From Nemertoderma westbladi (Eukaryota; Animalia; Xenacoelomorpha), in contig JAUCBJ010006752.1 in NCBI GenBank assembly GCA_032718475.1, positions 37,179 to 101,178 on the forward strand: a DNA stretch of 64,000 bases, in the 5' to 3' direction. Below the pieces are notes generated by a model that was not told the origin of the DNA, did no database searches, and saw only the letters and a list, made by a program, of their open reading frames with translations. The translations under genes were made by a program, and so were the position numbers. This document shows positions 12,352-56,458 of this stretch, in pieces. How positions within the stretch are numbered: the stretch's first letter is position 1; each line of letters begins with the position of its first letter.

Positions 12352-13029
12352 CTACTAACCATTTCATTATCACTTCCGGTAGGAGCGCATTCGCAGCACT
12401 GCCACGCCCCACTAACCATTTCATTATCACTTCCGGTAGGAGCGCATTCGCAACACTGTCACGCCCCACTAACCATTTCATATCACTTCCGGTTGGAGCG
12501 CATTCGCAGCACTGCCACGCCCCACTAACCATTTCATAATCACTTCCGGTAGGAGCGCATTCAGAGCACTGCCACGCCCCCCTAACCATTTCATTATCAC
12601 TTCCGCTTGGAGCGCATTCGCAGCACTGCCACACCCCACTAACCATTTCATATCACTTCCGGTACGAGCGCATTCGCAGCACTGTCACGCCCCACTAACC
12701 ATTTATATCACTTCCGGTAGGAGCGCATTCAGAGCACTGCCACGCCCCCCTAACCATTTCATTATCACTTCCGCTTGGAGCGCATTCGCAGCACTGCCAC
12801 ACCCCACTAACCATTTCATATCACTTCCGGTACGAGCGCATTCGCAGCACTGTCACGCCCCACTAACCATTTCATATCACTTCCGGTAGGAGCGCATTCA
12901 GAGCACTGCCATGCCCTACTAACCATTTCATTATCACTTCCGGTAGGAGCGCTTCGCAGCACTGCCACACCCCACTAACCATTTCATTATCACTTCCGGT
13001 AGGAGCGCATTCGCAGCACTGCCACGCCC
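12352..13029 (-). repeat. 55-57-bp tandem array (~12 units) of the exon 10 end plus splice donor
   Basis: Unit GGCGTGGCAGTGCTGCGAATGCGCTCCTACCGGAAGTGATAATGAAATG|GTTAGTGG. Confidence 0.95.
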
Positions 13030-13874: not shown

Positions 13875-13958
13875 CTGAGTCAATAATAGTTTATCAAGTA
13901 TAATAAATATAAATCAACAGTTATGTGTCAGATGTCGTAGTAAGGTACCCCGCTCTAA

Positions 13959-16900
13959 ACCACCTGAGTTACCCACACTAACCCACCCAGGTACCCACAC
14001 TACCCCACCCAGTTACTCACACTAACCCACCCAGTTACCCACACTAACCCACCCAGGTACCCACACTAACCCACCCAGTTACTCACACTAACCCACCCAG
14101 TTACCCACACTAACCCAGCCAGTTACCCACACTAACCCACCCAGTTACTCACACTAACCCACCCAGTTACTCACACTAACCCACCCAGTTACTCACACTA
14201 ACCCACCCAGTTACCCACACTAACCCACCCAGTTACCCACACTAACCCACCCAGTTACTCACACTAACCCACCCAGTTACCCACACTAACCCAGCCAGTT
14301 ACCCACACTAACCCACCCAGTTACTCACACTAACCCACCCAGTTACTCACACTAACCCACCCAGTTACTCACACTAACCCACCCAGTTACTCACACTAAC
14401 CCACCCAGTTACCCACACTAACCCAGCCAGTTACCCACACTAACCCACCCAGTTACTCACACTAACCCACCCAGGTACCCACACTACCCCACCCAGTTAC
14501 TCACACTAACCCACCCAGTTACCCATACTAACCCACCCAGTTACTCACACTAACCCACCCAGTTACTCACACTAACCCACCCAGTTACCCACACTAACCC
14601 AGCCAGTTACCCACACTAACCCACCCAGTTACTCACACTAACCCACCCAGGTACCCACACTACCCCACCCAGTTACTCACACTAACCCACCCAGTTACCC
14701 ACACTAACCCAGCCAGTTACCCACACTAACCCACCCAGTTACTCACACTAACCCACCCAGGTACCCACACTACCCCACCCAGTTACTCACACTAACCCAC
14801 CCAGTTACCCATACTAACCCACCCAGTTACTCACACTAACCCACCCAGTTACCCACACTAACCCAGCCAGTTACCCACACTAACCCACCCAGTTACTCAC
14901 ACTAACCCACCCAGGTACCCACACTACCCCACCCAGTTACTCACACTAACCCACCCAGTTACCCACACTAACCCAGCCAGTTACCCACACTAACCCACCC
15001 AGTTACTCACACTAACCCACCCAGGTACCCACACTACCCCACCCAGTTACTCACACTAACCCACCCAGTTACCCATACTAACCCACCCAGTTACTCACAC
15101 TAACCCACCCAGTTACCCACACTAACCCACCCAGGTACCCACACTAACCCACCCAGTTACTCACACTAACCCACCCAGTTACCCACACTAACCCAGCCAG
15201 TTACCCACACTAACCCACCCAGTTACTCACACTAACCCACCCAGTTACTCACACTAACCCACCCAGTTACTCACACTAACCCACCCAGTTACCCACACTA
15301 ACCCACCCAGTTACCCACACTAACCCACCCAGTTACTCACACTAACCCACCCAGTTACCCACACTAACCCAGCCAGTTACCCACACTAACCCACCCAGTT
15401 ACTCACACTAACCCACCCAGTTACTCACACTAACCCACCCAGTTACTCACACTAACCCACCCAGTTACTCACACTAACCCACCCAGTTACCCACACTAAC
15501 CCAGCCAGTTACCCACACTAACCCACCCAGTTACTCACACTAACCCACCCAGGTACCCACACTACCCCACCCAGTTACTCACACTAACCCACCCAGTTAC
15601 CCACACTAACCCACCCAGTTACCCACACTAACCCACCCAGTTACTCACACTAACCCACCCAGTTACTCACACTAACCCACCCAGGTACCCACACTAACCC
15701 ACCCAGTTACTCACACTAACCCACCCAGTTACCCACACTAACCCAGCCAGTTACCCACACTAACCCACCCAGTTACCCACACTAACCCACCCAGTTACCC
15801 ACACTAACCCACCCAGTTACACACACTAACCCACCCAGTTACCCACACTAACCCACCCAGTTACCCACACTAACCCACCCAGTTACTCACACTAACCCAC
15901 CCAGTTACCCACACTAACCCAGCCAGTTACCCACACTAACCCACCCAGTTACTCACACTAACCCACCCAGTTACTCACACTAACCCACCCAGTTACTCAC
16001 ACTAACCCACCCAGTTACTCACACTAACCCACCCAGTTACCCACACTAACCCAGCCAGTTACCCACACTAACCCACCCAGTTACTCACACTAACCCACCC
16101 AGTTACTCACACTAACCCACCCAGTTACTCACACTAACCCACCCAGTTACCCACACTAACCCACCCAGTTACCCACACTAACCCACCCAGTTACCCACAC
16201 TAACCCACCCAGTTACTCACACTAACCCACCCAGTGACCCACACTAACCCACCCAGTTACCCACACTAACCCACCCAGTTACCCACACTAACCCACCCAG
16301 TTACCCACACTAACCCACCCAGTTACTCACACTAACCCACCCAGTTACTCACACTAACCCACCCAGTTACCCACACTAACCCAGCCAGTTACCCACACTA
16401 ACCCACCCAGTTACTCACACTAACCCACCCAGGTACCCACACTACCCCACCCAGTTACTCACACTAACCCACCCAGTTACCCATACTAACCCACCCAGTT
16501 ACTCACACTAACCCACCCAGTTACTCACACTAACCCACCCAGTTACCCACACTAACCCAGCCAGTTACCCACACTAACCCACCCAGTTACTCACACTAAC
16601 CCACCCAGGTACCCACACTACCCCACCCAGTTACTCACACTAACCCACCCAGTTACCCACACTAACCCAGCCAGTTACCCACACTAACCCACCCAGTTAC
16701 TCACACTAACCCACCCAGGTACCCACACTACCCCACCCAGTTACTCACACTAACCCACCCAGTTACCCATACTAACCCACCCAGTTACTCACACTAACCC
16801 ACCCAGTTACCCACACTAACCCAGCCAGTTACCCACACTAACCCACCCAGTTACTCACACTAACCCACCCAGGTACCCACACTACCCCACCCAGTTACTC

Positions 16901-18391
16901 ACACTAACCCACCCAGTTACCCACACTAACCCAGCCAGTTACCCACACTAACCCACCCAGTTACTCACACTAACCCACCCAGGTACCCACACTACCCCAC
17001 CCAGTTACTCACACTAACCCACCCAGTTACCCATACTAACCCACCCAGTTACTCACACTAACCCACCCAGTTACCCACACTAACCCACCCAGGTACCCAC
17101 ACTAACCCACCCAGTTACTCACACTAACCCACCCAGTTACCCACACTAACCCAGCCAGTTACCCACACTAACCCACCCAGTTACTCACACTAACCCACCC
17201 AGTTACTCACACTAACCCACCCAGTTACTCACACTAACCCACCCAGTTACCCACACTAACCCACCCAGTTACCCACACTAACCCACCCAGTTACTCACAC
17301 TAACCCACCCAGTTACCCACACTAACCCAGCCAGTTACCCACACTAACCCACCCAGTTACTCACACTAACCCACCCAGTTACTCACACTAACCCACCCAG
17401 TTACTCACACTAACCCACCCAGTTACTCACACTAACCCACCCAGTTACCCACACTAACCCAGCCAGTTACCCACACTAACCCACCCAGTTACTCACACTA
17501 ACCCACCCAGGTACCCACACTACCCCACCCAGTTACTCACACTAACCCACCCAGTTACCCACACTAACCCACCCAGTTACCCACACTAACCCACCCAGTT
17601 ACTCACACTAACCCACCCAGTTACTCACACTAACCCACCCAGGTACCCACACTAACCCACCCAGTTACTCACACTAACCCACCCAGTTACCCACACTAAC
17701 CCAGCCAGTTACCCACACTAACCCACCCAGTTACCCACACTAACCCACCCAGTTACCCACACTAACCCACCCAGTTACACACACTAACCCACCCAGTTAC
17801 CCACACTAACCCACCCAGTTACCCACACTAACCCACCCAGTTACTCACACTAACCCACCCAGTTACCCACACTAACCCAGCCAGTTACCCACACTAACCC
17901 ACCCAGTTACTCACACTAACCCACCCAGTTACTCACACTAACCCACCCAGTTACTCACACTAACCCACCCAGTTACTCACACTAACCCACCCAGTTACCC
18001 ACACTAACCCAGCCAGTTACCCACACTAACCCACCCAGTTACTCACACTAACCCACCCAGTTACTCACACTAACCCACCCAGTTACTCACACTAACCCAC
18101 CCAGTTACCCACACTAACCCACCCAGTTACCCACACTAACCCACCCAGTTACCCACACTAACCCACCCAGTTACTCACACTAACCCACCCAGTGACCCAC
18201 ACTAACCCACCCAGTTACCCACACTAACCCACCCAGTTACCCACACTAACCCACCCAGTTACCCACACTAACCCACCCTGTTACCCACACTAACCCACCC
18301 AGTTACCCACACTAACCCACCCAGTTACACACACTAACCCACCCAGTTACCCACACTAACCCACCCAGTTACCCACCCTAACCCACCTGAG
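13959..18391 (-). repeat. 22-bp tandem array (~200 units) starting at the exon 7 donor
   Basis: Unit GTGGGTTAGTGTG(G/A)GTAACTGG; fills almost the whole intron. Confidence 0.97.
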
Positions 18392-18629
18392 TGATCCCCA
18401 TAACTTCACTCTTACGGACTAGTTTCCGAAGGGCCGATGGACTCGCGAACACACTCCTCGGCTCCACCGCGTTGTACGACTCCACGGGTTTAATCGTCGC
18501 GCTCTGTTTGAGGTAACGGCGTCGCCATCCAGCCAACTTCCGCTCCGATCTGTCGTCATGACGAACCTCGTGGTTCCGTAACTGAGACATTAACACGAGA
18601 TGTTGTCTCTTCTTCTGTTTCATATCTTG
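18387..18629 (-). CDS. PHF14: PHF14 exon 7
   Basis: ...PRSVFASPSALRKLVRKSEVMGITQ matches PHF14 SASAIRKLMRKAELMGI; ATACAG acceptor, GTGGGT donor. Confidence 0.9.
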
Positions 18630-19621: not shown

Positions 19622-20022
19622 CTAGAGAACAGATGGTAAGAAAGGATTAAACGGTGAGTCGGAAATTTTAGAAAATAATGATAAAAAAATGCCTGCTAAT
19701 TATTGAGTGACAAATATTTAACTGGTAATTAACAACTTTTTAAATATTACATTTTATCGGCCGAAATATGATTTTGCGTAGAAATTTTAAGATTTCTTTG
19801 CATCGATTGTTTTCAATTATAGATATTAACTAGGAGTGAATAGACTTGTAGATTATGACAGATGTCTGCTTATTGTTATGGTCTTGGGACGTTAGTGCCC
19901 GCGAGACATTAGTGCCTGCGGGCACTAAAGTCTCAGTACCTTTAGTGCCCGCGGTCACCTAGTCGCATTATCGCGGGCACTAATGTCCCATGAGACGTTA
20001 GTGCCCGCGAGACATTAGTGCC

Positions 20023-22369
20023 ATAGATAGATAGATAGATTTATTTATACATTATGTAAAAACAATAACAACTACACCAAACAATATACCGGTATAAAGG
20101 TAGTGTCCAACATAACATATAGGATTACCCCTAAAGCTTTGCAGCTTATTTCCAAGGGGGTCCTTTATGTTACTTGGTTACAAATACAATATTACACTAC
20201 GCTAACCTAAAACCAATATAAAACGTAATTACACTATGTACATGTACAACTTTACCGAGAGCGTGACAATGCCCGACTCAACGATAAAGATGTAATGTAC
20301 AGAACAATTTATTATAAAACGTAATTACAGTATAAATAGTAAATAATTAATAAACTAATAACTTACTGTAGAACTATTGTACCTATTTTTACATTGCACA
20401 CGGAGGTGAGATTTAACTGCAGATTTAAAAGAATGTGGATTATCTAGGTTTTTAATTTCATTAGGCAGAGCGATCCAATTTTTAATGCTGTTAAAACAGA
20501 AAGTATCAGATTCAAAGGATTTACAATTCGGGAGGTAGAAGTTTGAAGCACTAGCTCTGGTACTGTAAGAGTGTGTATCGCGTACTCTGTTGAATTTTTG
20601 TTTTAGGTAATTGGGACATTTACCATTATACACTTTATGCACATGGTTAAGGCGTAGCTGCTTAACTCTACTATCTAAGTTAAGTAGTCCAGATTCAGAA
20701 AAGTCATCTGGAGTTAGGTGGTGCCTATGTTTGTAGTCTTTAATAAATCGTACTACTTTATTCTGAGCTACTTGTAATTTACATTTAAGCTGTTTGGTTA
20801 AGCCTTCATACCAAGAAGGGCACGCATAGTCCATGTGACACTGTATTAAAGAAGAGCATAGTAACTTGCGGGAGTCGGTGTTCAAACTATTTTTATTTCT
20901 GTATAGGAACCTAAGCCTACTGTTAACTTTCGAGGAAATATTTTTCACTGTACTTTCTCCTGATAAGCAGTTATCCAATGTGGCGCCTAAATATTTAACT
21001 TCCTTTTTATTTTCAATCTTATATCCATTACTAGTGACTTCAAACTTAGTTACCTTCTTTAACTTTCTTTTGGAACCAAACAAAATACTTTCAGTCTTAC
21101 TGCTTACCGTAGTGAATGGATAGCTTATTATCAACCAACCACTCATTACAGGATTCTAGAACTGCACTTAACTTTTGGGAAATATGGATAGGATCTTTAT
21201 GAGAGAAAATAAGAGCACTGTCGTCGGCATATAAAATGAGTTTAAAATCGGGATCTATACTACTTATCATATCATTTACATAGCATACAAAAAGCAGAGG
21301 ACCTAATATACTACCTTGCGGTACACCACAGGTAACCTCTTGTACAGTAGACTGCGATTTGCTAATGACTACAGTTTGACCTCTGTCTGACAGGTAGGAC
21401 TTGAACCAGTCTATAGAACCTACACCCATCAGGCCTAACTTACCAAGCAGAATTTCGAGATCGACAGTATCGAAAGCCTTTTGTAGGTCCAACATTACCA
21501 TACCAGTATATAAACCCTTTGCGTTATTACATCTAATTGTATCAGTTAAGTTAATAAGGCAGGTGTCTGTAGAATATGATTTACGAAAACGGACTGAAGT
21601 TCATAGATCAGATTTAGCCTACTAAGATGTGCCTCCAGCTGTAGAAAAACAGAACGTTCTAGAATTTTAGATACAATACTTAAGGTCTGTAATTACAGGG
21701 TTCTACTTTACTATTCTTTTTATACAGAGGGACAACCTTAGCTAATTTCAGTTCGTCTGGTACTACATTATCTACGATAGAGTAATTAATAATAAAAGTA
21801 ATAGGTACTTTAAGTACTTCAGCACCATCCTTAAGAAAACGGGCAGGTATTAGGTCTAGACCGGTACTTTTTGAGGCTGATAGGCTAAGTAGATTTTGAA
21901 AAACGAAATCCTCAGAAACGGGTTTTAAAAATAACTTTTCTGAATTTTGTAACTCTTCTAAATAAAAATTATTTAGAGTTTCGGACCCTATAAACTATAT
22001 TTATTTCTTGGTAACGGTAACTTCTTAACTAAATTAGAGGCAACATTAGTAAAATAATTATTAAATAAATTACTAACTATAGAGTATGATCATGAATCAG
22101 CTCACCGTTAGACTTTTAGGATTATCTTTATTCTCACTTATTTTGTTGTACAAATATTCAGATTTAGCTTTTTTTATTTCCCGTTGGACAAGGTTTCTAT
22201 ATTTGCAGTAATTATTATAATCAGCTGAAACATGGTATTTTCTAAATTTATACAAATAGTTATCTCTTTCTCTGATATTACTAAGAATACCCGAGGTCAT
22301 CCAGGGCTCAGTGCGTTGTTTAAGACTAATTTCTATAATTGGTGCTACAGTATTAAGTTTATTGATAGT
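20023..22369 (-). mobile_element. Decayed, 5'-truncated LINE (CR1/L2/Crack group)
   Basis: Frameshifted RT pieces [28 protein letters not shown]; 3' tail of (TCTA)n at 20023-20040. Confidence 0.9.
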
Positions 22370-22606
22370 AACAATGTGTTGGCAAGCTGTATTTTTCGAG
22401 GTGTTTGTTATTATACATTTTATTATATAAGAAGGGATCTAGGGGTCTTTACCTCGAATGATAAGTTTATTTTACCGAAAATAACTTATCTTTTATTGGC
22501 GCAATTGTAGGACTAATCCCATCACATGCGTACTTTTTAACCGGGTAGTGTACAAATTTAGGAATCGCGTAATTTTTCTTGAAATTAATATCTCATATCT
22601 CTCCAA

Positions 22607-22649
22607 ACCACGTACGCGTTTCGACCTTACTGGGTCTCATCAGCGTGGT
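22607..22649 (-). ncRNA. Minimal type I hammerhead ribozyme, copy 1
   Basis: Minus strand reads ACCACG-CTGATGA-GACC(CAGTAA)GGTC-GAAA-CGCG-TA-CGTGGT: complete core, 6-bp stem I, 4-bp stem II, palindromic minimal stem III, GUA cleavage triplet. Confidence 0.9.
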
Positions 22650-23018
22650 GTCGGATTCGAACCTGGGACCTCGAGGCGGAAGCCGAGACTACAACCACTA
22701 GGCCACAGGTTCTTGAGATATGGATTATTAATTTCAAAGACAGCTGCCATTTTATTAGCCCCTGATTTTTGATTATTGATAGTAACAATGTGTTGGCAAG
22801 CTGTATTTTTCGAGGTGTTTGTTATTATACATTTTATTATAAGAAGGGATCTAGGGGTCTTAACCTCGAATGATAAGTTTATTTTACCGAAAATAACTTA
22901 TCTTTTATTGGCGCAATTGTAGGACTAATCCCATCACATGCGTACTTTTTAACCGGGTAGTGTACAAATTTAGGAATCGCGTAATTTTTCTTGAAATTAA
23001 TATCTCATATCTCTCCAA

Positions 23019-23061
23019 ACCACGTACGCGTTTCGACCTTACTGGGTCTCATCAGCGTGGT
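23019..23061 (-). ncRNA. Minimal type I hammerhead ribozyme, copy 2
   Basis: Identical motif 412 bp from copy 1. Confidence 0.9.
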
Positions 23062-23200
23062 GTCGGATTCGAACCTGGGACCTCGAGGCGGAAGCCGAGA
23101 CTACAACCACTAGGCCACAGGTTCTTGAGATATGGAGTATTAATTTCAAAGACAGCTGCCATTTTATTAGCCCCTGATTTTTGATTATTTCGAATCCGAC

Positions 23201-23243
23201 ACCACGCTGATGAGACCCAGTAAGGTCGAAACGCGTACGTGGT
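23201..23243 (+). ncRNA. Minimal type I hammerhead ribozyme, copy 3 (inverted)
   Basis: accacg ctgatga gacc cagtaa ggtc gaaa cgcg ta cgtggt read directly on + strand. Confidence 0.9.
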
Positions 23244-23432
23244 TTGTGAGAGATATGAGATATTAATTTCAAGAAAAATTACGCGATTCTTAAATTTGTA
23301 CACTACCCGGTTAAAAAGTACGCATGTGATGGGATTAGTCCTACAATTGCGCCAATAAACGTTAAGTTATTTTCGGTAAAATAAACTTATCATTCGAGGT
23401 AAAGACCCCTAGATCCATTCCTATAATAAAAT

Positions 23433-23830
23433 CTCTAGATGGCACATTCACAAGAATGCTACTCCGGGTTCACTGTGGCAAGTACAATGAACACATCTCC
23501 AATAAGACTCTATACAACATTGGAGGTGTTCCATTAATCACCCCTAGCTTGACACTTGAACGGAACCGCCTCCGCTTTGCAGGACATTGCTTTCGCCGTG
23601 AGGACCAGCCAGTGCATAATCTTGTACTTTGGCGGCCTCATGGAGCGAATAAGCATGGTGGCAGCCATGACTTTCTTGAGACGTATCTTAAAGGACACTG
23701 GCCTTGAAGATGCGGATGATCTAGCAAATGTCATGGGTGATTTCGAGTTGTGGCGGCGCAATTTTGTCGACAAGCCGGCACAGCTTTCTTAATATATATA
23801 TAATGCAGCTGCAATGCAGCATGCAATGCA
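23433..23830 (+). mobile_element. RTE-clade LINE 3' fragment
   Basis: RLRFAGHCFRREDQPVHNLVLW; same family as the 50520-52545 copy. Confidence 0.85.
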
Positions 23831-23859
23831 TCGTGATAGTAGTAGTCTACAGGGAGATT

Positions 23860-24050
23860 GTATTAGCCCTACGCAATTGGCTGCCACCATTCGCTTTCTG
23901 TTTGAAGCCGACGACCTGGCAATCTACTCCCGAAATCCCATTGACATCCAGAACGCGTTAAATAAATTACATAAATGGTGCAATCTTAATGGAATGGAGG
24001 TCAATTTGGTGAAAACCAAAATAATTAAGTTTAGAAAAGGCTTAGAAAAA
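23860..24050 (+). pseudogene. Short RT fragment
   Basis: ADDLAIYS..QNALNKLHKWC..MEVNLVKTKII. Confidence 0.65.
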
Positions 24051-24670
24051 ATATACAGTAAAATTACTTTACGGTATTGAAAAAGCTATTACGTTACGGT
24101 TTACGATACGGAAAAATATTGAACTACGGAATTCCTGAAAAGATACCGTAACGTAACGTAATAACATCCTTTTCTCAAACTAATGTTATTAGCCAAAAAA
24201 TAAGAGCTAGTCTGATTTTTGACAAGCCTTCGAGCAGCACGATATTTTATAATTAAATACGGCCCTTTTCATAAAAAAAAACCTTTCACGGTACAGAATT
24301 GAATAAAATTGCTTGAATAAATTCAAATTTTCATTTAAACTCTGCGGAGTAGCCGAACGTATGGGGGTGGTGGAAATTCAAAATGGCAGAAATAACATTT
24401 TTAAAAATAAATTCTACCAAAACTGAAATAATATTGTTAAAGTCTAAATCAAGAAATCAATTACGAGATACAAATCTTGAAATGTTGTAAGTTATTTTCT
24501 GATAATATTTCATCGCCGCGCGGATTCACGGACTATTTGTTTCATTACAAATCGGAATATTAAATAACAAAATGATAATGGGAAAACATTAATATGTACA
24601 TTATAAACACCGATGGATGGATAAAACGAATGATAAATGAGAAACTACAATAGTTTATGAAATTATCGAT

Positions 24671-25409
24671 TTACACCGAGTGCGACCCGTAGTCAGTGGA
24701 ACTACAGCTGTAGAACCACACGGTATTGGAATCCTTCGCAAAGTCCTTCTTCTCGTGGAGTCGTTCACCGGTGAAGAGATTAGCTGCGAGTAGAACCCGA
24801 TAGGGGCGACAACTTTCCGAAGTGGATAAACTCTGGACGAGAACAGCGAGAAGGTAACGAACATCGGCGAACTGGTCGGGATCGGACCAGGGGTTACCTC
24901 GGAGTCGGATTACCATCGAGGTGCCCTCGTTTCGGACGCACTTGACCCCTCTGGACCAGTGGGCCGCGACGAGCGTGCGGATAAACTCGCCGACGTCGTC
25001 CGGGGCTCCGATAACGCGAACTTTACCGCGCTCGTTGGTGCTCACGGAGAAGGTGTTCAACGCGTAGCGATGCGTCGCCCTCTCGAACACGAAGAACCGG
25101 TGCGTCCGGAATATTTGGAAGTTGGACGGGGATACGGACCAGCCCTGTCCGGCGAGCGTGGCGAACACGCGTCCGAGGAGGAGTCGCGAGTCGATCGCTT
25201 CGTGGCTCGAACTCGGCGGCTTCCAGGGCTGCCCGCCCAACTCGTACTCCCAACTGCTGCCTAGCAACGTCTGGCCTTGGATACCGCGGGGCCAGGCTCG
25301 ACGCAGCGCTCCCCTAACAACGGAGATCATGGCTTTAGGAGCGTCCGACAGACGGAGTCGATTGTGATTGGTTAATGAGATTAGAAGGCGTTGATTAGGG
25401 GGCTTCAAA
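24671..25409 (-). CDS. Nested gene exon 2, uncharacterised repeat-domain protein
   Basis: TTTCAG acceptor matches exon 1 phase; two repeats ISLTNHNRLRLSDAP..AWPRGIQ..YELGGQPW and VSTNERGKVRVIGAP..HWSRGVK..IRLRGNPW; joined CDS 1428 nt. Confidence 0.8.
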
Positions 25410-26094
25410 CTGAAACAATGATAAGGTAACTTTATAAGTAAAGTGTGATCGTAGTCCGGTACACTATTATAGTGATACAACAATTCTGATTAATAAACGT
25501 GATTAATGAACATATATTTCGTAACGACTTGCGGTGTATAAATTGTCAATAATAACGTTGAAATTAAACTTATGATCTAATAATGATAGGTAATAGAGTG
25601 AAACAATAATATGAATTGAAGAGGTTACAGAACTAGCTGGCATGCAGGAAGTAAGTAATTAAATCTAATAGCAAAAAAATTAGATAAAAATACTGTATTG
25701 AATTTCATATCTTTCAATTCTCCTCAATTCATTGTTCTACCCGATTACCTATATTTTCAGTAGGTCATACTTACTTATTCATTTAAACAATCTTATTATC
25801 AATTGATCTAATCAAGCACCACTAGGCGTTATGAAATGTATTATACTTAATTTATCGCGCCACAAACTTTACTCGACTTTATATTCAATCTCAAACTTAG
25901 TTTATCAACGGCCTATCGCACTAATAGTGTCAAATAATTTGTATGTAAAATAAAGTAAAATGTATGTTGTATAAAGTGCTCTCGGTAATAATTGTAGAAT
26001 GGCATATTAATTATATTTGACTACCTAAAATAAGCAGAATCAAGAAACGTTTAAAGTTTGTAATAAAATAAATTAGTAACAAAATCCAGCTTAC

Positions 26095-26783
26095 CTGCAT
26101 GTTAAGTAAATACAATCTGGTTTATTCATAGCGTGAAGGGAAGTTAAGAGATGCCAACCGGCGGTTGCGAGGACTTTGAGTAACCTGCCGACTATAGTTG
26201 ATATGAGACCGGAAGCTGTGGGTCCGTCGTCCATCCACGGATAGCGACCTAGAGTGAGCACGTTGGTGGTACGGGGGCACGCGATATCGCTTACCAAGAC
26301 GCCCTCGTCCGCTACTCGGAACACTGTCTGCACGGTGGCGACCAGTCGCGAAGGCGCGTTGATCAATGTCACTTTGTCGTATTCGGTGAAACATACGGAT
26401 AGCGGCTCGCTCGACATGGGTTGCGCGTTCAGTTTACGGAACAGCCAGCAGGTTTCCTTGTAATAGCAGGAGATATCCGCGGACACCACCGCCCTCCAAC
26501 CCAGACTGTCCAGTCTATAGATGAGCACCGAACCGAATATCTGGAAGAATGTCGAGTCTTCCCACATCGAGTGCGGGTTGTGGTCTATCCTTATCGTGTG
26601 CTCGCCCGTGCATCCGGTTTCAACCGAGACCTGTTTACCCCAGACCGTCGCCACGGCTTCTCGGATAACTTCGACCTCCACGGCCGTGGCGAACTGAATA
26701 GTCAGACAGTGATCGTTGCTGATCCCCACGCTCAGGGTATCCATGGCAACGGGACGAATGTCTGTGGAATATCGCGTTCCCAT
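26095..26783 (-). CDS. Nested gene exon 1, uncharacterised repeat-domain protein
   Basis: GC-rich 230-aa ORF ending at an AG|GTAAGC donor (phase 2); two internal repeats (e.g. SVCFTEYDKVTLINAPSRLV...LGRYPW). Confidence 0.75.
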
Positions 26784-28207
26784 ACCAACGTATGGACAAC
26801 CGATTTATATAATAAATATATAATTTAACATAAAAGTAAATAAGTAAGTTCCTATAATATCGATGAATTAACGACTCATAAAGTAACTTTAAGTAAATAG
26901 CGACTTAATATAATTATAACACACACACCACTCCCATGCGTTAATTATAATATAGTTACTGTTGCTCTTCTCGCAAGCTCCTATAAAGATAATTCGGTCA
27001 TAAAAAAAATAATTTATTTATAAGATATTCGCACATGATTTGCACAACTCCTTCACAACTATAACGCTAATCTCACGTCACGTATATTGTAACCACTACA
27101 GAGAAGGTACGTGGTCTAATTACACAATAAATTCATACGATTCAACAACCGCTCAGTACCGTATTCAATTATTGTTCTATTTACCCATAAATAATCAAAC
27201 AATTTACAATTCACACTCTCAAACAACCCGTCTCATTGCGCCTCTGGTTAAATACAGAATAAATCCCAGGTCGGATTACAACGGAGCGGGGAATACTGGC
27301 AGATGGAGGATTAATCCTGGGCAACACATTCTCCAATAGGAATCCGTGTGCCCAATTGGTGCACTCAATGACGCAATGTGGCGGGAGGGAAGCTGAGATA
27401 AGGACATAAGGAAGGGCTTGTAAGTAACGGGGGGAGAGTAGGAAGTTACTAATGTCGGGAGCTTATAGGGACGATAAAGCAAAGCGATTCCTGGAAGTAG
27501 CGTAAAGCTTTAAAGAGGTGCACCCAGCCCAGAGGGTTGGACAATGTCAATACGACCACGCAAAAACAAGTACTCCACCTCCACGCCCACCCATACTATA
27601 ACGATAAGTTTACGGCAAAGTTATTTAGTAAATACGACGACAAAAACACACTGATTCCCGTTTAATAATGACATTAGAACATATTTATATAAGATAATTA
27701 ACTCAATTTTAATGTAAAGCTTATCAAAGCTACTAATTGTATGTTTAGCGAATAAGTTTTTTCGAAGATTTAATGTTTTTAATTGTAGAGCAAAAGGAAG
27801 TAAAAAACTATAACCTATAATAATTAGGAACGCATAAAAATAATAATAATTGTATTAATAAAGAATGCGGCATACAGAAGTAATACCGTTACATAACGTA
27901 TAAATAAGGACTTAGGGGGTAGGCCTATATAAAACAAAATAAGAATAATCGAACCCCACCGGCCCACCCCCACAACCAAGACGGAAAATAAAAATAACAT
28001 GCGGTCAGGTCCAATTTACGTGTTACCTGGAATATTTTTATATCTCCCGAGATTTTAAGGGAACACAAAGAGATAATCAAATAACTGTTGTACTGAGCGA
28101 AATGTTGAACAATATGTGAGACTATTAGAAAAACGTAAATCTAGTTCAACGATAACTGGATCATCCTGAGGATAAAGTGAGAAATATAACCATCAAAAAC
28201 AATACGT

Positions 28208-29083
28208 ACCATCTCCCTTAATACAATAATAATGTTTAGGAGGTCGGAGCCCCCCCCCCCCCCCTCTTAATTTTTTTCAAATTTCAATAAAAAGCTACGA
28301 AATTTGGTATGATGATAGTTCGACAATTTTTCTTACTGATGGCAGAGTCGGATTTTTTAATTTATGAGCTTTTTCGACACAACAAGTCGTTAAAAACGGA
28401 TTCTTAGTAATATTTAACAACCATCTCGGTTTGGCTTTATTTTTAATCATTTTGAATGTTATCTAGATAGTATGAGAACCGCCTTCATGAAAACCGTTTA
28501 AAATTTCATCAAAAAATGCCATAAGATATTATCAAGATACAAAGACGTGTAAATTTTGAATCACTATAATTCTATTAACTATTATTATTTAGTTGAAACT
28601 TTAAAACTATCCATCTTTTTTTCATTATTAGGCGTAATTAATATTCTAAAATTGAGTAAATAAAACATTAGAATTATGGCAATTTGCAATTAGAAATATG
28701 GTAATTATGGCAATCTCAAAATTTGCACTTAGTATTTTGATAATATCTTTGACATTTTTTGATGAAATTTAAAACGGTTTTCGTCGGAATCTGCAGATGA
28801 AGGCGGTTCTCCTAATATCTAGATTACATTCAAAAGATTTAAAAATAAAGCTGACAAAGATGGTTAAATATTGCTAAAAGGGCGTTTTTAGCGGCATTGT
28901 TTTATCGAAATAACTCATAAATTAAAAAAACCGGCCAGGCCAGAGCAGTAAGAAAAGCTGTCAAACTATCATAATATCAAATTTTGTGACATATGATTGA
29001 AATTTGAAAAAAATATGGGTAGGGGGGGGGGATGTGGGGGGCTCCGACCCCCTAAATATGGTTGTTGTATTAAGGGAGATGGT
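28208..29083. mobile_element. Foldback/MITE with long inverted arms
   Basis: accatctcccttaatacaa...ttgtattaagggagatggt with inverted similarity continuing about 400 bp inward. Confidence 0.8.
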
Positions 29084-29879
29084 GTATTACAAATTGTTAG
29101 ATTTTCGGAATAAAATAATTGTACATGAAACTAAAAAAATTAAAAATAAATCAAAATTAGATTTCTTACGTTGTTCACAACTTTATTTTAATATATTCAT
29201 GTCGATCATAAACTTTGGTCGTTAATATAGTAAGCAATATTAATAAATAAAATTAGTAACCAGTAGAATAATCTAACAGTAAAAATGGATTGGTGGGTCT
29301 GATACGTCTACATGTCCTTCGCAATAACGTTAAATTAACGGAATTAATTATTACATTTTCCACTGATACCAATCGAATTCTGCATTTAGAAATTCTTGAG
29401 ATTTGATTTCATTGATTTGCCTATAATTCACCTCTAACTGTAAGTTCTCGTAAGTTACCATTATATACTGTATAAATGAAAGGTAACAAAAATTTTGAGA
29501 GTTTTTTGGACACACCTAAGCAAAGTCTGTCCAGGGTAGGTGTAAAACGCGGATCCGGATCCGGATTCCAAAATTATCAATTAAGGGAAAGGAGCAGGTT
29601 ACAGTGGCACGATATTTTAACCAAAACAATAAACTAAAGTCAATAGAACAGGTTATAGTTTTATTTTTGGGAATTATAAAAATGTAAAAAAATCGACTTC
29701 CGTAGGGCCAATGTTAAATGTAGAATCCGGATCCGCTTTTTACTCTGACCAGTCTGTCCATAACTTGAACAAAGCAATAAACTAACTAATTAATTAGCAT
29801 CAACATTCTCCTAACCAATTACCCGGTAAGTGACATTATCTCTGACCTTTCAATTCTTTAACCGCTAACTAATACTAAC

Positions 29880-30146: not shown

Positions 30147-31834
30147 AGGGGTTGAATTTACGGGAGAAAAGCCGGCTCTACATGCGTCGCAGTACCGGCT
30201 CTACATGCGTCACAGTACCGGGTTGAACTTACGGGAGACAAGCCGGCTCTACATGCGTCACAGTACCGGGTTGAACTTACGGGAGACAAGCCGGCTATAC
30301 ATGCGTCACAGTACCGGGTTGAACTTAAGGGAGACAAGGCGGCTCTACATGCGTCACAGTACCGGGTTGAACTTACGGGAGACAAGCCGGCTATACATGC
30401 GTCACAGTACCGGGTTGAACTTACGGGAGACAAGCCGGCTCTACATGCGTCGCAGTACGTCGGGGGTTAAACTTACGGGAGACAAGCCGGCTCTACATGC
30501 GTCGCAGTACCGGGTTGAACTTAAGGGAGACAAGGCGGCTCTACATGCGCCACAGTACTGGGTTGAACTTACGGGAGACAAGCCGGCTCTACATGCGTCG
30601 CAGTACGTCGGGGGTTGAACTTATGGGAGACAAGCCGGCTCTACATGCGTCGCAGTACCGGGTTGAACTTAAGGGAGACAAGCCGGCTCTACATGCGTCG
30701 CAGTACGTCGGGGGTTGAACTTACGGGGGACAAGCCGGCTCTACATGCGTCACAGTACCGGGTTGAACTTACGGGAGACAAGCCGGCTATACATGCGTCA
30801 CAGTACCGGGTTGAACTTACGGGAGACAAGCCGGCTCTACATGCATCACAGTACCGGGTTGAACTTACGGAAGACAAGCCGGCTCTACATGCGTCGCAGT
30901 ACCGGGTTGAACTTACGGGAGACAAGCCGGCTCTACATGCGTCGCAGTACCGGGTTGAACTTAAGGGAGACAAGGCGGCTCTACCTACATGCGTCACAGT
31001 ACCGGGGGTTGAACTTACGGGAGACAAGCCGGCTCTACATGCGTCGCAGTACGTCAGGGTTGAACTTACGGGAGACAAGCCGGCTCTACATGCGTCACAG
31101 TACCGGGTTGAACTTACGGGAGACAAGCCGGCTCGACATGCGTCACAGTACCGGGTTGAACTTACGGGAGACAAACCGGCTCTACATGCGTCGCAGTACC
31201 GGGTTGAACTTACGGGAGACAAGCCGGCTCTACATGCGTCACAGTACCGGGTTGAACTTACGGGAGACAAGCCGGCTCTACATGCGTCGCAGTACCGGGG
31301 GTTGAACTTAAGGGAGACAAGGCGGCTCTACATGCGTCACAGTACCGGGTTGAACTTACGGGAGACAAGCCGGCTCTACATGCGTCACAGTACCGGGTTG
31401 AACTTACGGGAGACAAGCCGGCTCTACATGCGTCGCAGTACCGGGTTGAACTCAAGGGAGACAAGGCGGCTCTAGATGCGCCACATTACCGGGGGTTGAA
31501 CTTACGGGAGACAAGCCGGCTCTACATGCGTCGCAGTACGTCGGGAGTTGAACTTACGGGAGACAAGCCAGCTCTACATGCGTCGCAGTACCGGGTTGAA
31601 CTTAAGGGAGACAAGGCGGCTCTACATGCGCCACAGTACCGGGGGTTGAACTTACGGGAGACAAGCCGGCTCTACATGCGTCACAGTACCGGGTTAAACT
31701 TACGGGAGACAAGCCGGCTCTACATGCGTCACAGCACCGGGTTGAACTTACGGGAGACAAGCCGGCTCTACATGCGTCACAGTACCGGGTTGAACTTACG
31801 GGAGACAAGCCGGCTCTACATGCGTCACAGTACC
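30147..31834 (-). repeat. 48-bp tandem array (~35 units) of the exon 4 end plus splice donor
   Basis: Unit CGGTACTGTGACGCATGTAGAGCCGGCTTGTCTCCC|GTAAGTTCAACC. Confidence 0.95.
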
Positions 31835-31950
31835 AGGGTTCCGTTGAGCAACTCGATTCGGTGCTGCTATGCGATACGTTGTCGCCGACACCATCGCCGT
31901 AACAATTCTCGTGTACCGATATCCCGCATGAATCGCACACCATTATCTCG
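31800..31950 (-). CDS. PHF14: PHF14 exon 4 (PHD1)
   Basis: EIMVCDSCGISVHENCYG...STEPWYCDACRAGLSP matches recalled human EIIQCDNCGITVHEGCYG...STEPWFCDACKCGVSP; CCGCAG acceptor, GTAAGT donor. Confidence 0.92.
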
Positions 31951-43529: not shown

Positions 43530-43923
43530 AACTACAGATGAATCAAAAACAAAATTCTGGACATATCGCGAAATAATGAACCCCAAGCTCGAACCACACC
43601 AGTTGTATAAAAAACGCGACCTATACCTGCCAGATTATATCCGGATATGGTTCACCCGTATTAGACTAATGTCACACAACCTAAGGATAGAAAAGGGTAG
43701 ATGGAGCCGAACCCCGACCGAACAGCGGGTGTGTGAGTGCGCCAAAATTTCTGTACAAAATGAACCCCATGTTTTACTTTTCTGCCCTTTAACCACAAAA
43801 TTACGGAATAAATATGAAAATTTGGATTTTGATAACGTTAATGTATTATTCTATGGTAATAATAATAATTTAGGGTTTCTATGTAAATATATATATGAAG
43901 TAATACAGGTCTTCGGCGATTAG
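43530..43923 (+). mobile_element. LINE C-terminal fragment with Cys/His knuckle (RTEX-like)
   Basis: TRIRLMSHNLRIEKGRW..RVCEC..EPHVLLFCP. Confidence 0.75.
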
Positions 43924-45997
43924 TGCTTATATATATATATACTGTAATTACTATATTAGTATTGAACTATCGTTGTTTATATCATTTGAATATTTTGGAC
44001 ATTATAATTAGGTACTGGGTACTGATTTCCACTGTCCGAGTTCGCTCGACCTAGTAGTAATTAGGTACTATTTTTTGAATACGGTCTAACAGTTCCTTCA
44101 TTATTCCTATTTCGCTTATTATTTGTGATTGTGCTGTGCTTTATATTATTAACAATATTATCAATGTCAATAAAATACTACTAACCATAACCCTAAGTCA
44201 TAATCTAAGAAATTTAGCGGAATTTCTGACATTATTGCCATCTAGGCCCGAAGGGCCGTTAATGCTAAATATCATAAAAACTTTACGGGCAAAGATGTAA
44301 CTATAATCGATTTCAAAGAGTTGAGTTTGAGTAATTTATATTCACGGAATGGTAATCTGGAACCATATCCCATGATGATGTTTCCAGGTTTTGTTATATT
44401 AGTTTTCAACTGTATGTTAAAATTGAGTTATAGTGGTCGCAAAAATGATTTAAAATGTTCGCAAATACAGTAAGCCTACCAACCCACGTGTTTATTTATC
44501 TTCCATCCGCATTCATTGGCAATGAAAGCATGCCTGTTGAGTTATGAACTGGAGGTCAGTTGTTTTATATTTTTAACTCGTTTTATGATGTTTAGGAGAT
44601 AATAAATGTCAATAAAACCAATTTCAGGTGTTCAGGGCAATTTTATAACAACAATTTTGTAACAAATACAATTATGTATTTATTATTATTATTATGTATG
44701 TATTTGGCTTTGATTTTATACCGATAATTAAAATTCCAAAGCTGGTACTCAACTCACGTGTTGTTTACAACTTGTCACTATGGTAACCATACCATGTTCC
44801 AGATATTCTTGAACGTGTCCATGACGGCATCTCCTGACACGAATCACATAAATAATTTACTTTATATTATTGGAGGAATAATTTTATGTGCTTGTGTTGT
44901 GAACGCGTTTGTGGTTTACCATGTGTGCAATTTTTTACGATTATAATGTAACTAACATTACTATAGAGTGGCGGTAACTTAAAATTGTTTTAGACTTCGT
45001 TGTTGGCATTGCATGTTATGTATCTTTATAAACTGCCCGCCGAGTAGGGCCTAAATTTACGCGGCGGGCAATTCCTATTTATGAATTAAATAGTTACGCA
45101 TTTTTCAACCTTGGGAAAGAGTAGCGCCCTCACTGCCTTACAGGTAATTGCAAAGAGAGAGGAAGCCTTAGGGATGGCTCCGCTTTCTGTTGCCCGTTTA
45201 CCAATAACTTTACTTTATGTCACACTTAGGATATATGTTTATGGTACCATTGACGGTACCAAACTTTATTATTAGAGTGTTAAATTAATTAATCACTTAA
45301 CGGAAGTTATGTAATTGAGACTGTCGTTTCTGATTCTGCCGGAAATGTACCCTAATCAACCAAATTTGTTTTTGACCTTCTACATAAATAATGACAATAT
45401 GTAAAGGCATAAAATAGTGATATATAATTTATACATAACCGTAACCAAACGTAATATTCTATGGCAGAACGATTGATACAGCAATTAGTTCCTTTGAAGA
45501 ACATTGTAAACCTCAGTACGATATTATATGGCCAACAGTTTATAGGCTCATTCCATCAAATGTCAACCGCAGTGCCAATTTTGAAAAAAGTGTATTATTG
45601 CTTCTCATATCAATTTTCAGAACCAATATATGATGCGGTTTACGAATTTAATGCAAAAAACCGCATCAAAATTGGTAAACTTTCTGAAATCTGGTGTTAT
45701 TCGGGTTTACCTCTCAAACTGCAAAAATACAGTTAACTGAGTGCATAATATGACAACAGCGTTTTATGAGTATTATTTTAGGCAGATGGCAAAGTAATAG
45801 AGTACTTTTCGAAGCAAAACAATCATATTTTCTAATGAAATCATTTGCTGTCAATTAAAACAACGTTAGTAGTAGGGTCTTGGGCGGCTCGGCGACAGTT
45901 AGACCACACTCATGACTCATCGCTTAGGAATGTGACACCCATGGGTGTCATTGGGTGTGATTGGCGCCAGACTGTCTGGGTGACACCTCCTAATTAG

Positions 45998-47786
45998 AGT
46001 TATAGTTCTTCCGGGTAGAATACTATTATTGGGTGATTTTAACTTTCATGTTGATGTCTGCGATAACAAGGATGCCGCCGAGTTTCTTGACATTTTAAAT
46101 TGCTTTGGATTGGTACAGTTAGTAAATCAACCAACCCACATAAAGGGCCATACACTAGATCTGGTGCTAGTACACACTGACGACCAGAATATCGTTTGCA
46201 ACGTTTTTGTACGAAATATAGGTTTATCCGACCACTTTGCAGTCTACTTTAACTTGAATTTCACTAAACCAGCCGATATATCACAGACAATAAGTTACCG
46301 AAATATAAGTAAAATAAACGGTAATCTGTTTTTGGAGGATTTAAAACATTCACCAGTATGCGACTCTCCTTCTGGTGATATTAATGGAGTTATTAAAATG
46401 TATAATGATAACCTAATGAACATACTCGATAAACACGCCCCATTACAAACAAAAACTGTTTCCATGAGGCCGAAGGCAAATTGGTACACTGATGAGATTA
46501 ACGACGCAAAAAGAAAACGCAGAAGATTGGAGCGCCGATATCGAAAGACGAATATCTGTGCTGATTGTATCGCCTATCGCCTACAGTGCACGGTGGTTGC
46601 CAATACCATAGCGTCAGCAAAAGAGACATATTATAGTAACATTATAAAGAATAATGCAGGTGATCAACGAAAACTATTTTCAGTGGCTGCCAAAATACTT
46701 TATCGTAAAAACAAAAGTACATTGCCTTCACACGAGGATGATGAAAAGTTGGCGAACAGGTTTATGGAATTCTTTGACAAGAAAATAAAGGATATTAGAT
46801 ATGACTTATTATCTGGAAATGGCGGTTCTACTTCACGGGGCGTTGATGATCTGGGGGCTCCTACGGAGGGCGCTATCAAACTGGGTGTTCCTACGGGGGG
46901 CGCTACTGAATTGGGCATTCCTACGGGGGGTGATACTGGACTGGGCGCTCCTACAGGGGAATCATCCGACCAGGGCGTTCCTACGGGGGGAGCATCTGAC
47001 CTGGGCATTCCTACAGGGGGTGCTGCTAGACTGGGTGTTCCTACGGGGGGCGCTACTGAATTGGGCATTCCTACGGGGGGTGATACTGGACTGGGCGCTC
47101 CTACAGGGGAATCATCCGACCAGGGAGTTCCTACGGGGGGAGCATCTGACCTGGGCATTCCTACAGGGGGTGCTGCTGGACTGGGCGTTCCTACGGGGGG
47201 TGCAACTGGACTGGGCGTTCCTACGGGGGGCTCATCTGAACTGGGCATTCCTATTGGGGGACCATCTGACCTGGGCATTCTTACGGGTGAAGCATCGGAT
47301 CTGGGTGTTCCTACAGGGGGCGCTAGTGAACTGGGCGTTCCTATGGGGGGCGCAACCAACCTGGGCATTCCTACGGGGGGTGTTACTGGACTGGGCGCTC
47401 CTATGGGGGGGGCTACTGAACTGGGCATTCATACGGGGGCCGCTACGGGACTGGGCATTCCTACGGGGTGCGCAACTAACCTAGGCATTCCTACGGGGGG
47501 CGCTACGGGACTGGGCGTTCCTACGGGTATGGGGGGCGCAACCAACGGTAAAGGAAACAATATTCCCAAATTGGAACACTTTAATAAAATAACAATGGAT
47601 GAGGCAGAAAAGCTAATAAAGAACTCAAAATCTAAATCTAGTACCATGGATCCGATTCCCACGCAATTAGTAAAACATTCAATAAAATTGTTGCTACCAG
47701 TGATTATGTTAATTATTAATTTATCAATTACAACTGCTACTGTGCCGACTCTATTCAAGGAAGCTGTGTTAACACCAGTCATAAAG
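45998..47786 (+). pseudogene. Duplicated 5' part of the L2 element, broken before the RT domain
   Basis: Same translation as 54701 ORF up to TPVIK, then unrelated sequence. Confidence 0.9.
46851..47530 (+). repeat. 30-bp coding minisatellite (~23 units) in L2 ORF, copy 1
   Basis: ctgggc(a/g)ttcctacggggggcgctactgaa units. Confidence 0.95.
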
Positions 47787-55500: not shown

Positions 55501-56458
55501 TACTTCACGGGGCGTTGATGATCTGGGGGCTCCTACGGAGGGCGCTATCAAACTGGGTGTTCCTACGGGGGGCGCTACTGAATTGGGCATTCCTACGGGG
55601 GGTGATACTGGACTGGGCGCTCCTACAGGGGAATCATCCGACCAGGGCGTTCCTACGGGGGGAGCATCTGACCTGGGCATTCCTACAGGGGGTGCTGCTA
55701 GACTGGGTGTTCCTACGGGGGGCGCTACTGAATTGGGCATTCCTACGGGGGGTGATACTGGACTGGGCGCTCCTACAGGGGAATCATCCGACCAGGGAGT
55801 TCCTACGGGGGGAGCATCTGACCTGGGCATTCCTACAGGGGGTGCTGCTGGACTGGGCGTTCCTACGGGGGGTGCAACTGGACTGGGCGTTCCTACGGGG
55901 GGCTCATCTGAACTGGGCATTCCTATTGGGGGACCATCTGACCTGGGCATTCTTACGGGTGAAGCATCGGATCTGGGTGTTCCTACAGGGGGCGCTAGTG
56001 AACTGGGCGTTCCTATGGGGGGCGCAACCAACCTGGGCATTCCTACGGGGGGTGTTACTGGACTGGGCGCTCCTATGGGGGGGGCTACTGAACTGGGCAT
56101 TCATACGGGGGCCGCTACGGGACTGGGCATTCCTACGGGGTGCGCAACTAACCTAGGCATTCCTACGGGGGGCGCTACGGGACTGGGCGTTCCTACGGGT
56201 ATGGGGGGCGCAACCAACGGTAAAGGAAACAATATTCCCAAATTGGAACACTTTAATAAAATAACAATGGATGAGGCAGAAAAGCTAATAAAGAACTCAA
56301 AATCTAAATCTAGTACCATGGATCCGATTCCCACGCAATTAGTAAAACATTCAATAAAATTGTTGCTACCAGTGATTATGTTAATTATTAATTTATCAAT
56401 TACAACTGCTACTGTGCCGACTCTATTCAAGGAAGCTGTGTTAACACCAGTCATAAAG
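52572..56458 (+). repeat. 3.9-kb segmental duplication, copy 2
   Basis: Matches 43900-47786; one substitution noticed (tagtggtcgc vs tagttgtcgc). Confidence 0.95.

What the first reader, a model, noticed from the sequence alone, without database searches (positions are those of the whole stretch)
22360..23432. tRNA-headed hammerhead 'retrozyme' array inside PHF14 intron 5
Seen: a ~412-bp non-coding unit occurs twice in tandem plus once inverted and truncated. On the minus strand each full unit has Pol III-type A and B boxes (TGGCCTAGTGG, GGTTCGAATCC) running straight into a complete minimal type I hammerhead (ACCACG CUGAUGA GACC-CAGUAA-GGUC GAAA CGCG UA CGUGGU). Established: minimal hammerheads with a palindromic stem III (here ACGCGU) are typical of Penelope-like element termini and of metazoan non-LTR retrozymes, and they cleave best as dimers in tandem transcripts; partial-tandem and inverted layouts are typical of Penelope-like insertions; Schistosoma Sm-alpha is a precedent for a SINE-like hammerhead repeat. 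Inference: this is a non-autonomous, self-processing retroelement family combining a SINE-like promoter with a ribozyme and releasing a 412-nt monomer, probably mobilised by a Penelope-like RT.
Basis: partly seen in the sequence, partly recalled or inferred. Interest (0 to 1): 0.9.

Follow-up and report, generated by a model that had tools for sequence, protein, structure and literature searches.

The report
tRNA-promoter retrozyme with Penelope-style insertion
This is one young copy of a high-copy, non-coding jumping repeat that places a tRNA-type promoter motif directly in front of a hammerhead ribozyme motif; it likely makes a self-cut 412-base RNA circle that a Penelope-type enzyme likely pastes back into the genome, a design already known from the blood-fluke Sm-alpha repeat and animal retrozymes but seen here in another kind of animal.

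Summary
In detail: two head-to-tail 412/414-bp units (minus strand) and a head-to-head, 5'-truncated third copy lie in a PHF14 intron (number unverified). Each full unit has consensus A/B boxes (0 of 20,000 shuffles) fused to a type I hammerhead. Public contigs indicate a high-copy family; in one run the unit assembles as a closed 411-nt loop. A long helix (0 of 2,000 shuffles) encloses the tRNA remnant and ribozyme and forms only in read-through or circular RNA. No genomic end sits at the cut site or the predicted Pol III start; this and the inverted arm fit Penelope-type internal priming on a circular or multimeric template. Cleavage, transcription, circles and the helper enzyme were not shown. 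Both flanks are truncated LINEs and there is no target-site duplication, so LINE template-switching remains a rival. Closest known: Schistosoma Sm-alpha and non-LTR retrozymes; a 2020 review says animal retrozymes seem to lack promoters. The scan noted similar tRNA-bearing Penelope-style repeats in other genomes before. Verdict: new variant of a known kind; interest 0.43.

The parts
22773..23184 (-). Unit A (5' copy of the direct arm), 412 bp
22359..22772 (-). Unit B (3' copy), 414 bp; its end at 22359 is the genomic 3' terminus, 252 nt downstream of the predicted cut site
   Evidence: 4 contigs of run X5 have loose ends before 22772, the equivalent boundary
23185..23189 (-). 5-bp terminal redundancy: the direct arm is two units plus 5 bp
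23189..23432 (+). Inverted, 5'-truncated arm (unit positions 112-354), head-to-head with the direct arm; intact hammerhead, no A box; 6 differences from both direct units
23062..23124 (-). tRNA-derived head of unit A (A box 23117-23107, B box 23075-23065), truncated after the B box; the copy in unit B is 22712-22650. The family-majority base at 22677/23089 gives a Gly(TCC)-like anticodon loop (tentative, read by eye)
   Evidence: not called by ARAGORN or Rfam
23019..23061 (-). Canonical type I hammerhead of unit A; predicted cut 3' of 23025
22607..22649 (-). Canonical type I hammerhead of unit B; predicted cut 3' of 22613
23201..23243 (+). Hammerhead of the inverted arm; predicted cut 3' of 23237 (position derived from the unit offset)
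22991..23149 (-). Long imperfect helix (arms 23149-23127 and 23013-22991) extending stem I and enclosing the tRNA remnant and ribozyme; its 5' arm lies upstream of the predicted Pol III start
22890..22893 (-). Only T4 run of the sense strand (possible weak Pol III terminator, inside a predicted hairpin); 22481-22478 in unit B
20358..22358 (-). Left flank: multi-copy LINE, 5'-truncated at the element's 3' end
   Evidence: RVT_1 hit; reading frame runs to the junction; a contig of run X4 continues into other sequence at 22358
23429..23840 (+). Right flank: high-copy LINE 3' fragment (RTE-like; that label is recalled and comes from no call), 5'-truncated, with 4-bp microhomology to the inverted arm; end coordinate approximate
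19622..29879 (-). PHF14 intron holding the insertion; the direct arm is in the gene's sense orientation

Best explanation
This is a young insertion of a high-copy, non-coding repeat with A/B-box and hammerhead motifs, likely a retrozyme that carries its own Pol III promoter and is likely copied into the genome by a Penelope-like element's enzyme. Proposed cycle: (1, inferred) Pol III starts near unit position 61 and reads through the single T4 into the next unit, or a host transcript such as the PHF14 pre-mRNA passes through. (2, predicted) Two hammerheads cut at position 160, probably helped by dimer pairing of the palindromic helix III, releasing a 412-nt monomer whose two ends are held together by stem I and the long helix. 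(3, inferred from published retrozymes) A host ligase closes the circle. (4, inferred) A Penelope-type RT/endonuclease primes internally at the A/C-rich site 252 nt downstream of the cut, runs twice round the circle to give the two units, and a second cDNA primed from the other DNA strand, possibly on a second RNA molecule, gives the inverted arm. Because the promoter precedes the ribozyme, only tandem copies would regenerate a full unit, as described for Sm-alpha. Shown directly: the layout, the motifs, multi-copy status and the end positions.
For: Layout and motifs. Multi-copy: summed contig depth about 113,000-460,000 over the element against 31 in a neighbouring bin of run X1; crude bounds about 80 to 10,000 copies (the tool warns depth is no copy number). 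Run X4 contig 18 is 441 nt with a 30-nt end overlap, a closed 411-nt assembly loop, so the head-to-tail junction is the main path there. Four X5 contigs end at the unit boundary with differing flanks (agreement 0.54). Unit folding z = -4.67, 0 of 100 shuffles. Long helix -24.2 kcal/mol, 0 of 2,000 shuffles and 0 of 25,129 other window 31-mers. Stem I pairing probability is 0.91 in circular or dimer context against 0.23-0.57 for the first ribozyme of a primary Pol III transcript. All three cut sites are intact inside the arms and no end coincides with the cut site (160) or the tRNA start (61). Internal priming in an AC-rich stem-loop, extension of both strands and a predicted dimer are reported for a Penelope protein (PMC11167929). 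Partial tandems with an adjacent inverted 5'-truncated copy are the described PLE layout (PMC8557442). The inverted arm holds 6 of 9 private changes (p = 0.006; 0.02 within the overlap) and has the family-majority base where both direct units share another.
Against: No Penelope partner was found: a short motif scan of the window shows none and no genome is held. No target-site duplication is visible, and both arms end against 5'-truncated LINEs. The 30-40-bp PLE tail cannot be read: the arms differ by 58 nt, but a LINE junction sits there. The closed loop in X4 fits tandem DNA as well as circular RNA; its depth (13.8) is close to the flanking LINE's (8.1), as expected of low-coverage DNA. Rfam scores are below gathering. 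Eight of nine predicted Xenopus retrozyme dimers did not cleave in vitro (preprint 10.64898/2026.07.22.740005), and hammerhead cleavage was dispensable for in vitro insertion by the anole Penelope protein. The excess divergence of the inverted arm could also come from later conversion or duplication between the two direct units. Conservation of the ribozyme core across copies was not measured: none of the 40 variant rows shown (of 119) falls in it, but 79 were not shown.
Confidence: 0.62

Rival explanations
1. Same promoter-plus-ribozyme RNA, but copied by LINE machinery: a LINE RT switched template from its own RNA onto the abundant repeat RNA, giving repeat-LINE chimeras.
For: Each arm's 3' end abuts the broken 5' end of a LINE in the same orientation; 4-bp microhomology at the right junction; no target-site duplication; LINEs are named as possible helpers in PMC7229834.
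Against: It needs two different LINEs to make two chimeras that meet head-to-head with 1 bp of overlap. The 3' end is not a predicted RNA end (not the cut site, not the T4). The same terminus recurs with other flanks in 4 X5 contigs. The window is dense in LINE remnants, so LINE neighbours are common.
Confidence: 0.13
2. The unit is simply the pLTR (terminal repeat) of an autonomous Penelope-like element, left as a truncated partial tandem; the A/B boxes belong to that pLTR.
For: PLE layout; Xenopus retrozymes are homologous to pLTRs; one X5 contig shares only the last ~37 bp of the unit and continues for 255 or more letters in other sequence, which could be a partner element or a sister family.
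Against: Two full identical-period units with no ORF between them (longest stop-free stretch 95 codons); a closed 411-nt loop in X4; the hammerhead is canonical, not the pLTR minimal type.
Confidence: 0.1
3. Retrozyme whose tRNA-like segment is a structural passenger and not an active promoter; RNA comes only from read-through transcription.
For: In the predicted fold the A-box region pairs with the segment before the B box as a hairpin rather than a cloverleaf; no tRNA call; the long helix needs sequence upstream of the Pol III start; PMC7761336 states that retrozymes seem to lack promoters.
Against: Both boxes match the strict consensus at tRNA spacing (0 of 20,000 shuffles) although the tRNA's 3' end is lost; Sm-alpha is described as Pol III-transcribed.
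Confidence: 0.12
4. Satellite-like DNA spread by DNA-level amplification and recombination, with the ribozyme and boxes as relics.
For: Tandem junctions dominate in X4; no RNA evidence.
Against: Only two units here, sharp ends, an inverted 5'-truncated arm, a recurrent terminus with different flanks, and intact RNA structure.
Confidence: 0.03

Closest known systems
Schistosoma Sm-alpha / Sj-alpha SINE-like hammerhead repeats (Ferbeyre 1998 and Laha 2000, not held; seen through passages of PMC6765202, PMC2770079 and PMC8490949)
   Same: tRNA-derived Pol III promoter followed by a type I hammerhead; tandem copies needed to regenerate a unit; high copy; similar size (335 bp for the W36.2 example).
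   Different: The host is probably not a flatworm (the 12 named PHF14 hits of 14 are lancelet, acorn worm, gastropod, sea urchin, insects and bryozoan at 61-74%; weak evidence). The head looks Gly(TCC)-like rather than Gln(TTG). The passages read do not link Sm-alpha to Penelope-type inverted insertions. Sequence homology was not tested.
Animal non-LTR retrozymes (Cervera and de la Pena 2020, PMC7229834: passages, parts 2 and 4 of 6, section 14; Li, Clavereau and Pollet 2026 preprint 10.64898/2026.07.22.740005: parts 1-3 of 5)
   Same: 150-450-bp low-GC tandem unit with a type I hammerhead in each copy, no ORF, strongly self-paired monomer, Penelope proposed as helper.
   Different: Carries consensus A/B boxes, whereas PMC7761336 (passages) says animal retrozymes seem to have no promoter; shows an inverted 5'-truncated arm. 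The supplement of PMC7229834 could not be read, so published retrozyme sequences were not checked for A/B boxes.
Penelope-like elements and their non-autonomous derivatives (PMC8557442 passages; PMC4209133 passages and section 5; PMC11167929 parts 1-2 of 4)
   Same: Tandem plus adjacent inverted 5'-truncated copy; 3' end internal to the RNA in an A/C-rich region.
   Different: No ORF; canonical rather than minimal hammerhead; tRNA-derived boxes; tail and partner not shown.
Classical tRNA-derived SINEs (PMC4758252, passages)
   Same: tRNA-derived A/B boxes, non-coding, high copy.
   Different: The unit starts 60 bp upstream of the tRNA start, is head-to-tail, and has no simple-repeat tail or target-site duplication here.

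Membership tests
Animal non-LTR retrozyme | Complete type I hammerhead in at least two consecutive tandem units | tested here: met
   operational definition
Animal non-LTR retrozyme | Unit of about 150-450 bp, GC under 50%, no coding capacity | tested here: met
   412 bp; GC 0.34 in the bin 22001-23000; longest stop-free stretch 95 codons
Animal non-LTR retrozyme | Multiple genomic copies | tested here: met
   contig depth and variant counts in runs X1, X3 and X5; no exact count
Animal non-LTR retrozyme | Target-site duplication longer than 4 bp, when present | tested here: inconclusive
   only 6-bp chance-level matches; the flanks belong to two different LINEs
Animal non-LTR retrozyme | Self-cleavage and accumulation as circular RNA | not testable with these tools
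   needs bench work; the closed assembly loop in X4 cannot separate tandem DNA from circular RNA
Sm-alpha-type SINE-like hammerhead repeat | tRNA-derived A and B boxes upstream of a type I hammerhead | tested here: met
Sm-alpha-type SINE-like hammerhead repeat | Transcription by RNA polymerase III | not testable with these tools
   no reads with 5' ends available
Sm-alpha-type SINE-like hammerhead repeat | Sequence homology to Sm-alpha | not tested
   no Sm-alpha sequence was available from a tool; filed as 'works like', not as a member
Penelope pLTR minimal hammerhead | Helix II 7-8 bp, helix I 4-5 bp, unpaired base before helix II | tested here: not met
   helix II 4 bp, helix I 6 bp, no extra base against the definition
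Non-autonomous Penelope-mobilised element | Tandem copies with an adjacent inverted 5'-truncated copy | tested here: met
   description
Non-autonomous Penelope-mobilised element | 30-40-bp tail at one end | tested here: inconclusive
   the arms differ by 58 nt at the 3' end, but the shorter one abuts a LINE
Non-autonomous Penelope-mobilised element | 3' region shared with an autonomous PLE of the same genome | not testable with these tools
   no genome held; no PLE motif in the window
Classical tRNA-derived SINE | 5' end at the tRNA start; 3' simple-repeat or LINE-derived tail with target-site duplication | tested here: not met
   the unit is permuted by 60 bp relative to the tRNA start; no duplication found

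The most novel reading that the evidence does not exclude
The Sm-alpha design is not a schistosome oddity but a widespread class of self-transcribing retrozymes: Pol III-driven, ribozyme-circularised RNAs that parasitise Penelope enzymes instead of LINEs, with one insertion built from two RNA templates by a dimeric enzyme (two turns of one circle on one strand, part of another on the other strand).
Probability: 0.3. Interest if true: 0.65.

Novelty: new variant of a known kind. Interest (0 to 1): 0.43.

Why it matters
How animal retrozymes are transcribed and which enzyme inserts them are both open in the papers read. This element carries a candidate answer to each in one 1.07-kb locus: an internal Pol III promoter motif and a Penelope-type footprint. 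It is young and intact, so cleavage, promoter activity and internal priming can be tested directly. The direct arm also puts two sense hammerheads inside a PHF14 intron, which could cut the pre-mRNA; that effect is untested. It is not a new category: Sm-alpha has the same promoter-plus-ribozyme plan.

Tried and rejected
No whole genome is held, so copy number, insertion sites and a Penelope partner could not be searched. No RNA holder was listed; this is no evidence on expression. Run X4 is only guessed to be RNA, and its depths track repeat abundance, so it was not used as expression evidence. A pattern for B box plus hammerhead core gave 13 loci in viral contigs and 2 in metagenome contigs; these are tRNA genes followed by hammerhead-like cores with no similarity to the unit beyond the B box, so no covariation analysis was possible. 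ARAGORN and Rfam found no tRNA. The sigma-70 scan was at chance level and is irrelevant to an animal. Several joints link direct and inverted coordinates (for example 22531-23324 and 22849-23361) and could be inversions at other loci, but the unit's own hairpins can mimic them, so they are not counted. I first took the inverted arm's 1-bp insertion for a family variant; the indel rows (22572, 22984, 23273) map to a different A-run, so that idea was dropped. The reading as a minimal pLTR hammerhead was rejected. Literature: 8 searches; in the listings, and in the passages of the 12 papers opened, I saw no report of a tRNA-headed hammerhead repeat with Penelope-type inverted insertion outside schistosomes. 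Subscription papers, Repbase/Dfam entries and the supplement of PMC7229834 could not be seen and may bear on this; PMC5785218 is not held.
Full report
Observation. The layout is as reported. Two units lie head-to-tail at 22359-22772 and 22773-23184, read on the minus strand, followed by 5 bp of a third unit and then a head-to-head copy at 23189-23432 that covers unit positions 112-354. The two direct units differ by three events in 412 bp, so the insertion is young. No other copy lies in the window.

Motifs. Each full unit has a strict A box (position 68) and B box (position 110), 42 nt apart. These are the only such pairs in 64 kb, and 0 of 20,000 shuffles of the unit produce one. The tRNA remnant stops three bases after the B box and runs into stem I of a hammerhead. 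ARAGORN and Rfam do not call it a tRNA. Rfam matches the ribozyme to HH9 and Hammerhead_1 at E about 0.001-0.002, below gathering. Helix I has 6 bp, helix II 4 bp, helix III 2 bp with a 2-nt palindromic loop. By the definitions in PMC4209133 (passages and section 5) this is the canonical metazoan type I form; the minimal Penelope form has a 7-8-bp helix II and an extra base. That paper says such a helix III impedes cleavage as a monomer and is rescued by dimer folding in tandem repeats. PMC7229834 reports efficient cleavage for most invertebrate retrozymes. A dimer requirement is therefore plausible but not shown.

RNA anatomy. The unit folds better than all 100 shuffles (z = -4.67). A long helix joins positions of about 34-60 to 172-195 and continues stem I, leaving the tRNA remnant as a side hairpin. 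Its duplex energy (-24.2 kcal/mol) is not reached by 2,000 shuffles or by 25,129 other window 31-mers. Its 5' arm lies upstream of the predicted Pol III start (position 61), so it can form only in read-through, multimeric or circular RNA. In those contexts stem I is predicted at probability 0.91, against 0.23-0.57 for the first ribozyme of a primary Pol III transcript. In the predicted 412-nt cut-to-cut monomer the helix clamps the two ends together, which would suit ligation (inference; RtcB-type circularisation is shown for other retrozymes). One T4 run lies at 292-295 and would have to be read through.

Family. No genome is held. Of 12 public runs listed, 7 hold the stretch or part of it; four were laid once. 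In X1 the summed contig depth over the element is about 113,000-460,000, against 31 in a neighbouring bin. The tool warns that this is no copy number; allowing for up to 31-fold overlap it brackets roughly 80 to 10,000 copies. In X4 a single 441-nt contig overlaps itself by 30 nt, a closed 411-nt loop. This shows that the head-to-tail junction is the main path there. It fits tandem DNA as well as circular RNA, and the depths in X4 look like low-coverage DNA. Four X5 contigs end at the unit boundary with differing flanks. Of 119 variant rows 40 were shown; nine fall in the element and none in the ribozyme, which is too little to claim conservation. Pattern scans of viral and metagenome contigs found no relatives.

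Context. The host gene is PHF14 (14 hits among 16 candidates, 61-74% identity, the named ones all invertebrates). The element lies in the 10.3-kb intron between exons ending at 29880 and starting at 19621. The intron number could not be fixed. Both immediate flanks are 5'-truncated LINEs oriented like the arm they touch: an RT-bearing LINE on the left with its frame open up to the junction and a LINE 3' fragment on the right with 4 bp of microhomology. No target-site duplication is present.

Mechanism. None of the arm ends falls at the ribozyme cut (160) or at the tRNA start (61), and all three cut sites are intact inside the arms. The template was therefore circular or an uncut multimer, and copying began inside it, 252 nt downstream of the cut, in a region whose last 60 nt are 67% A+C against 54% for the unit. 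A purified Penelope protein primes internally in an AC-rich stem-loop, nicks and extends both strands and is predicted to be a dimer (PMC11167929, parts 1-2). Partial tandems with an adjacent inverted 5'-truncated copy are the described Penelope layout (PMC8557442, passages). The inverted arm carries 6 of the 9 private changes (p = 0.006; 0.02 in the overlap alone) and has the family-majority base at unit position 343 where both direct units share another. This suggests a second template, though later conversion between the direct units would look the same. I put the Pol III-driven, Penelope-mobilised retrozyme model at 0.62. Rivals are LINE template-switch chimeras (0.13), a promoter-less retrozyme with a passenger tRNA remnant (0.12), a plain pLTR (0.10) and DNA-level satellite (0.03). 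Transcription, cleavage, circles and the helper are all inferred.

Comparison. Sm-alpha of Schistosoma is described as a Pol III promoter followed by a hammerhead in tandem repeats, where only tandems propagate (PMC6765202, passages), and as tRNA-derived (PMC2770079, passages). The unit works like it; membership by descent was not tested. It meets the sequence-level criteria of non-LTR retrozymes, for which Penelope origin is argued in a 2026 preprint. It departs from the review statement that animal retrozymes seem to have no promoter (PMC7761336, passages). Eight searches showed no report of this combination outside schistosomes, within the limits of the library. Earlier unchecked notes of this scan describe similar tRNA-bearing Penelope-style repeats in other genomes, one with a hammerhead; they are leads, not support.

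Verdict. A real feature and a new variant of a known kind.

Noticed in passing
L001-L015: In 14 of 15 viral or metagenome loci a complete tRNA gene is followed within a few bases by a hammerhead-like core. The loci were selected by that pattern, and full ribozyme folds were not checked. One literature search with four terms returned nothing.
   Followed up: partly
window 26804-26094 and 25489-24674 (minus): Two long open frames inside the same PHF14 intron, no Pfam hit; the first resembles an unnamed eukaryotic cluster (atlas score 0.93 with low recognition, weak). Possibly a nested gene.
   Followed up: partly
window 30149-31840 and 12354-13029: Tandem arrays (periods about 48 and 57 bp) that repeat the 3' ends of two PHF14 exons encoding PHD-finger ends.
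   Followed up: no
window 43900-47786 and 52572-56458: 3.9-kb direct duplication at 99.97% identity that includes the start of a LINE ORF; a recent duplication or an assembly artefact.
   Followed up: no
window 13955-18404: 4.4-kb strand-skewed 22-bp satellite with telomere-like words inside a PHF14 intron.
   Followed up: no
window 22773-22809: One contig of run X5 shares only the last ~37 bp of the unit and continues in other sequence for 255 or more letters; a candidate sister family or autonomous partner. Other joints suggest shorter subfamilies that lack the hairpin near unit positions 280-350.
   Followed up: no
window 62879-61608 (minus): Open frame of 424 codons matching galactose-3-O-sulfotransferase.
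   Followed up: no
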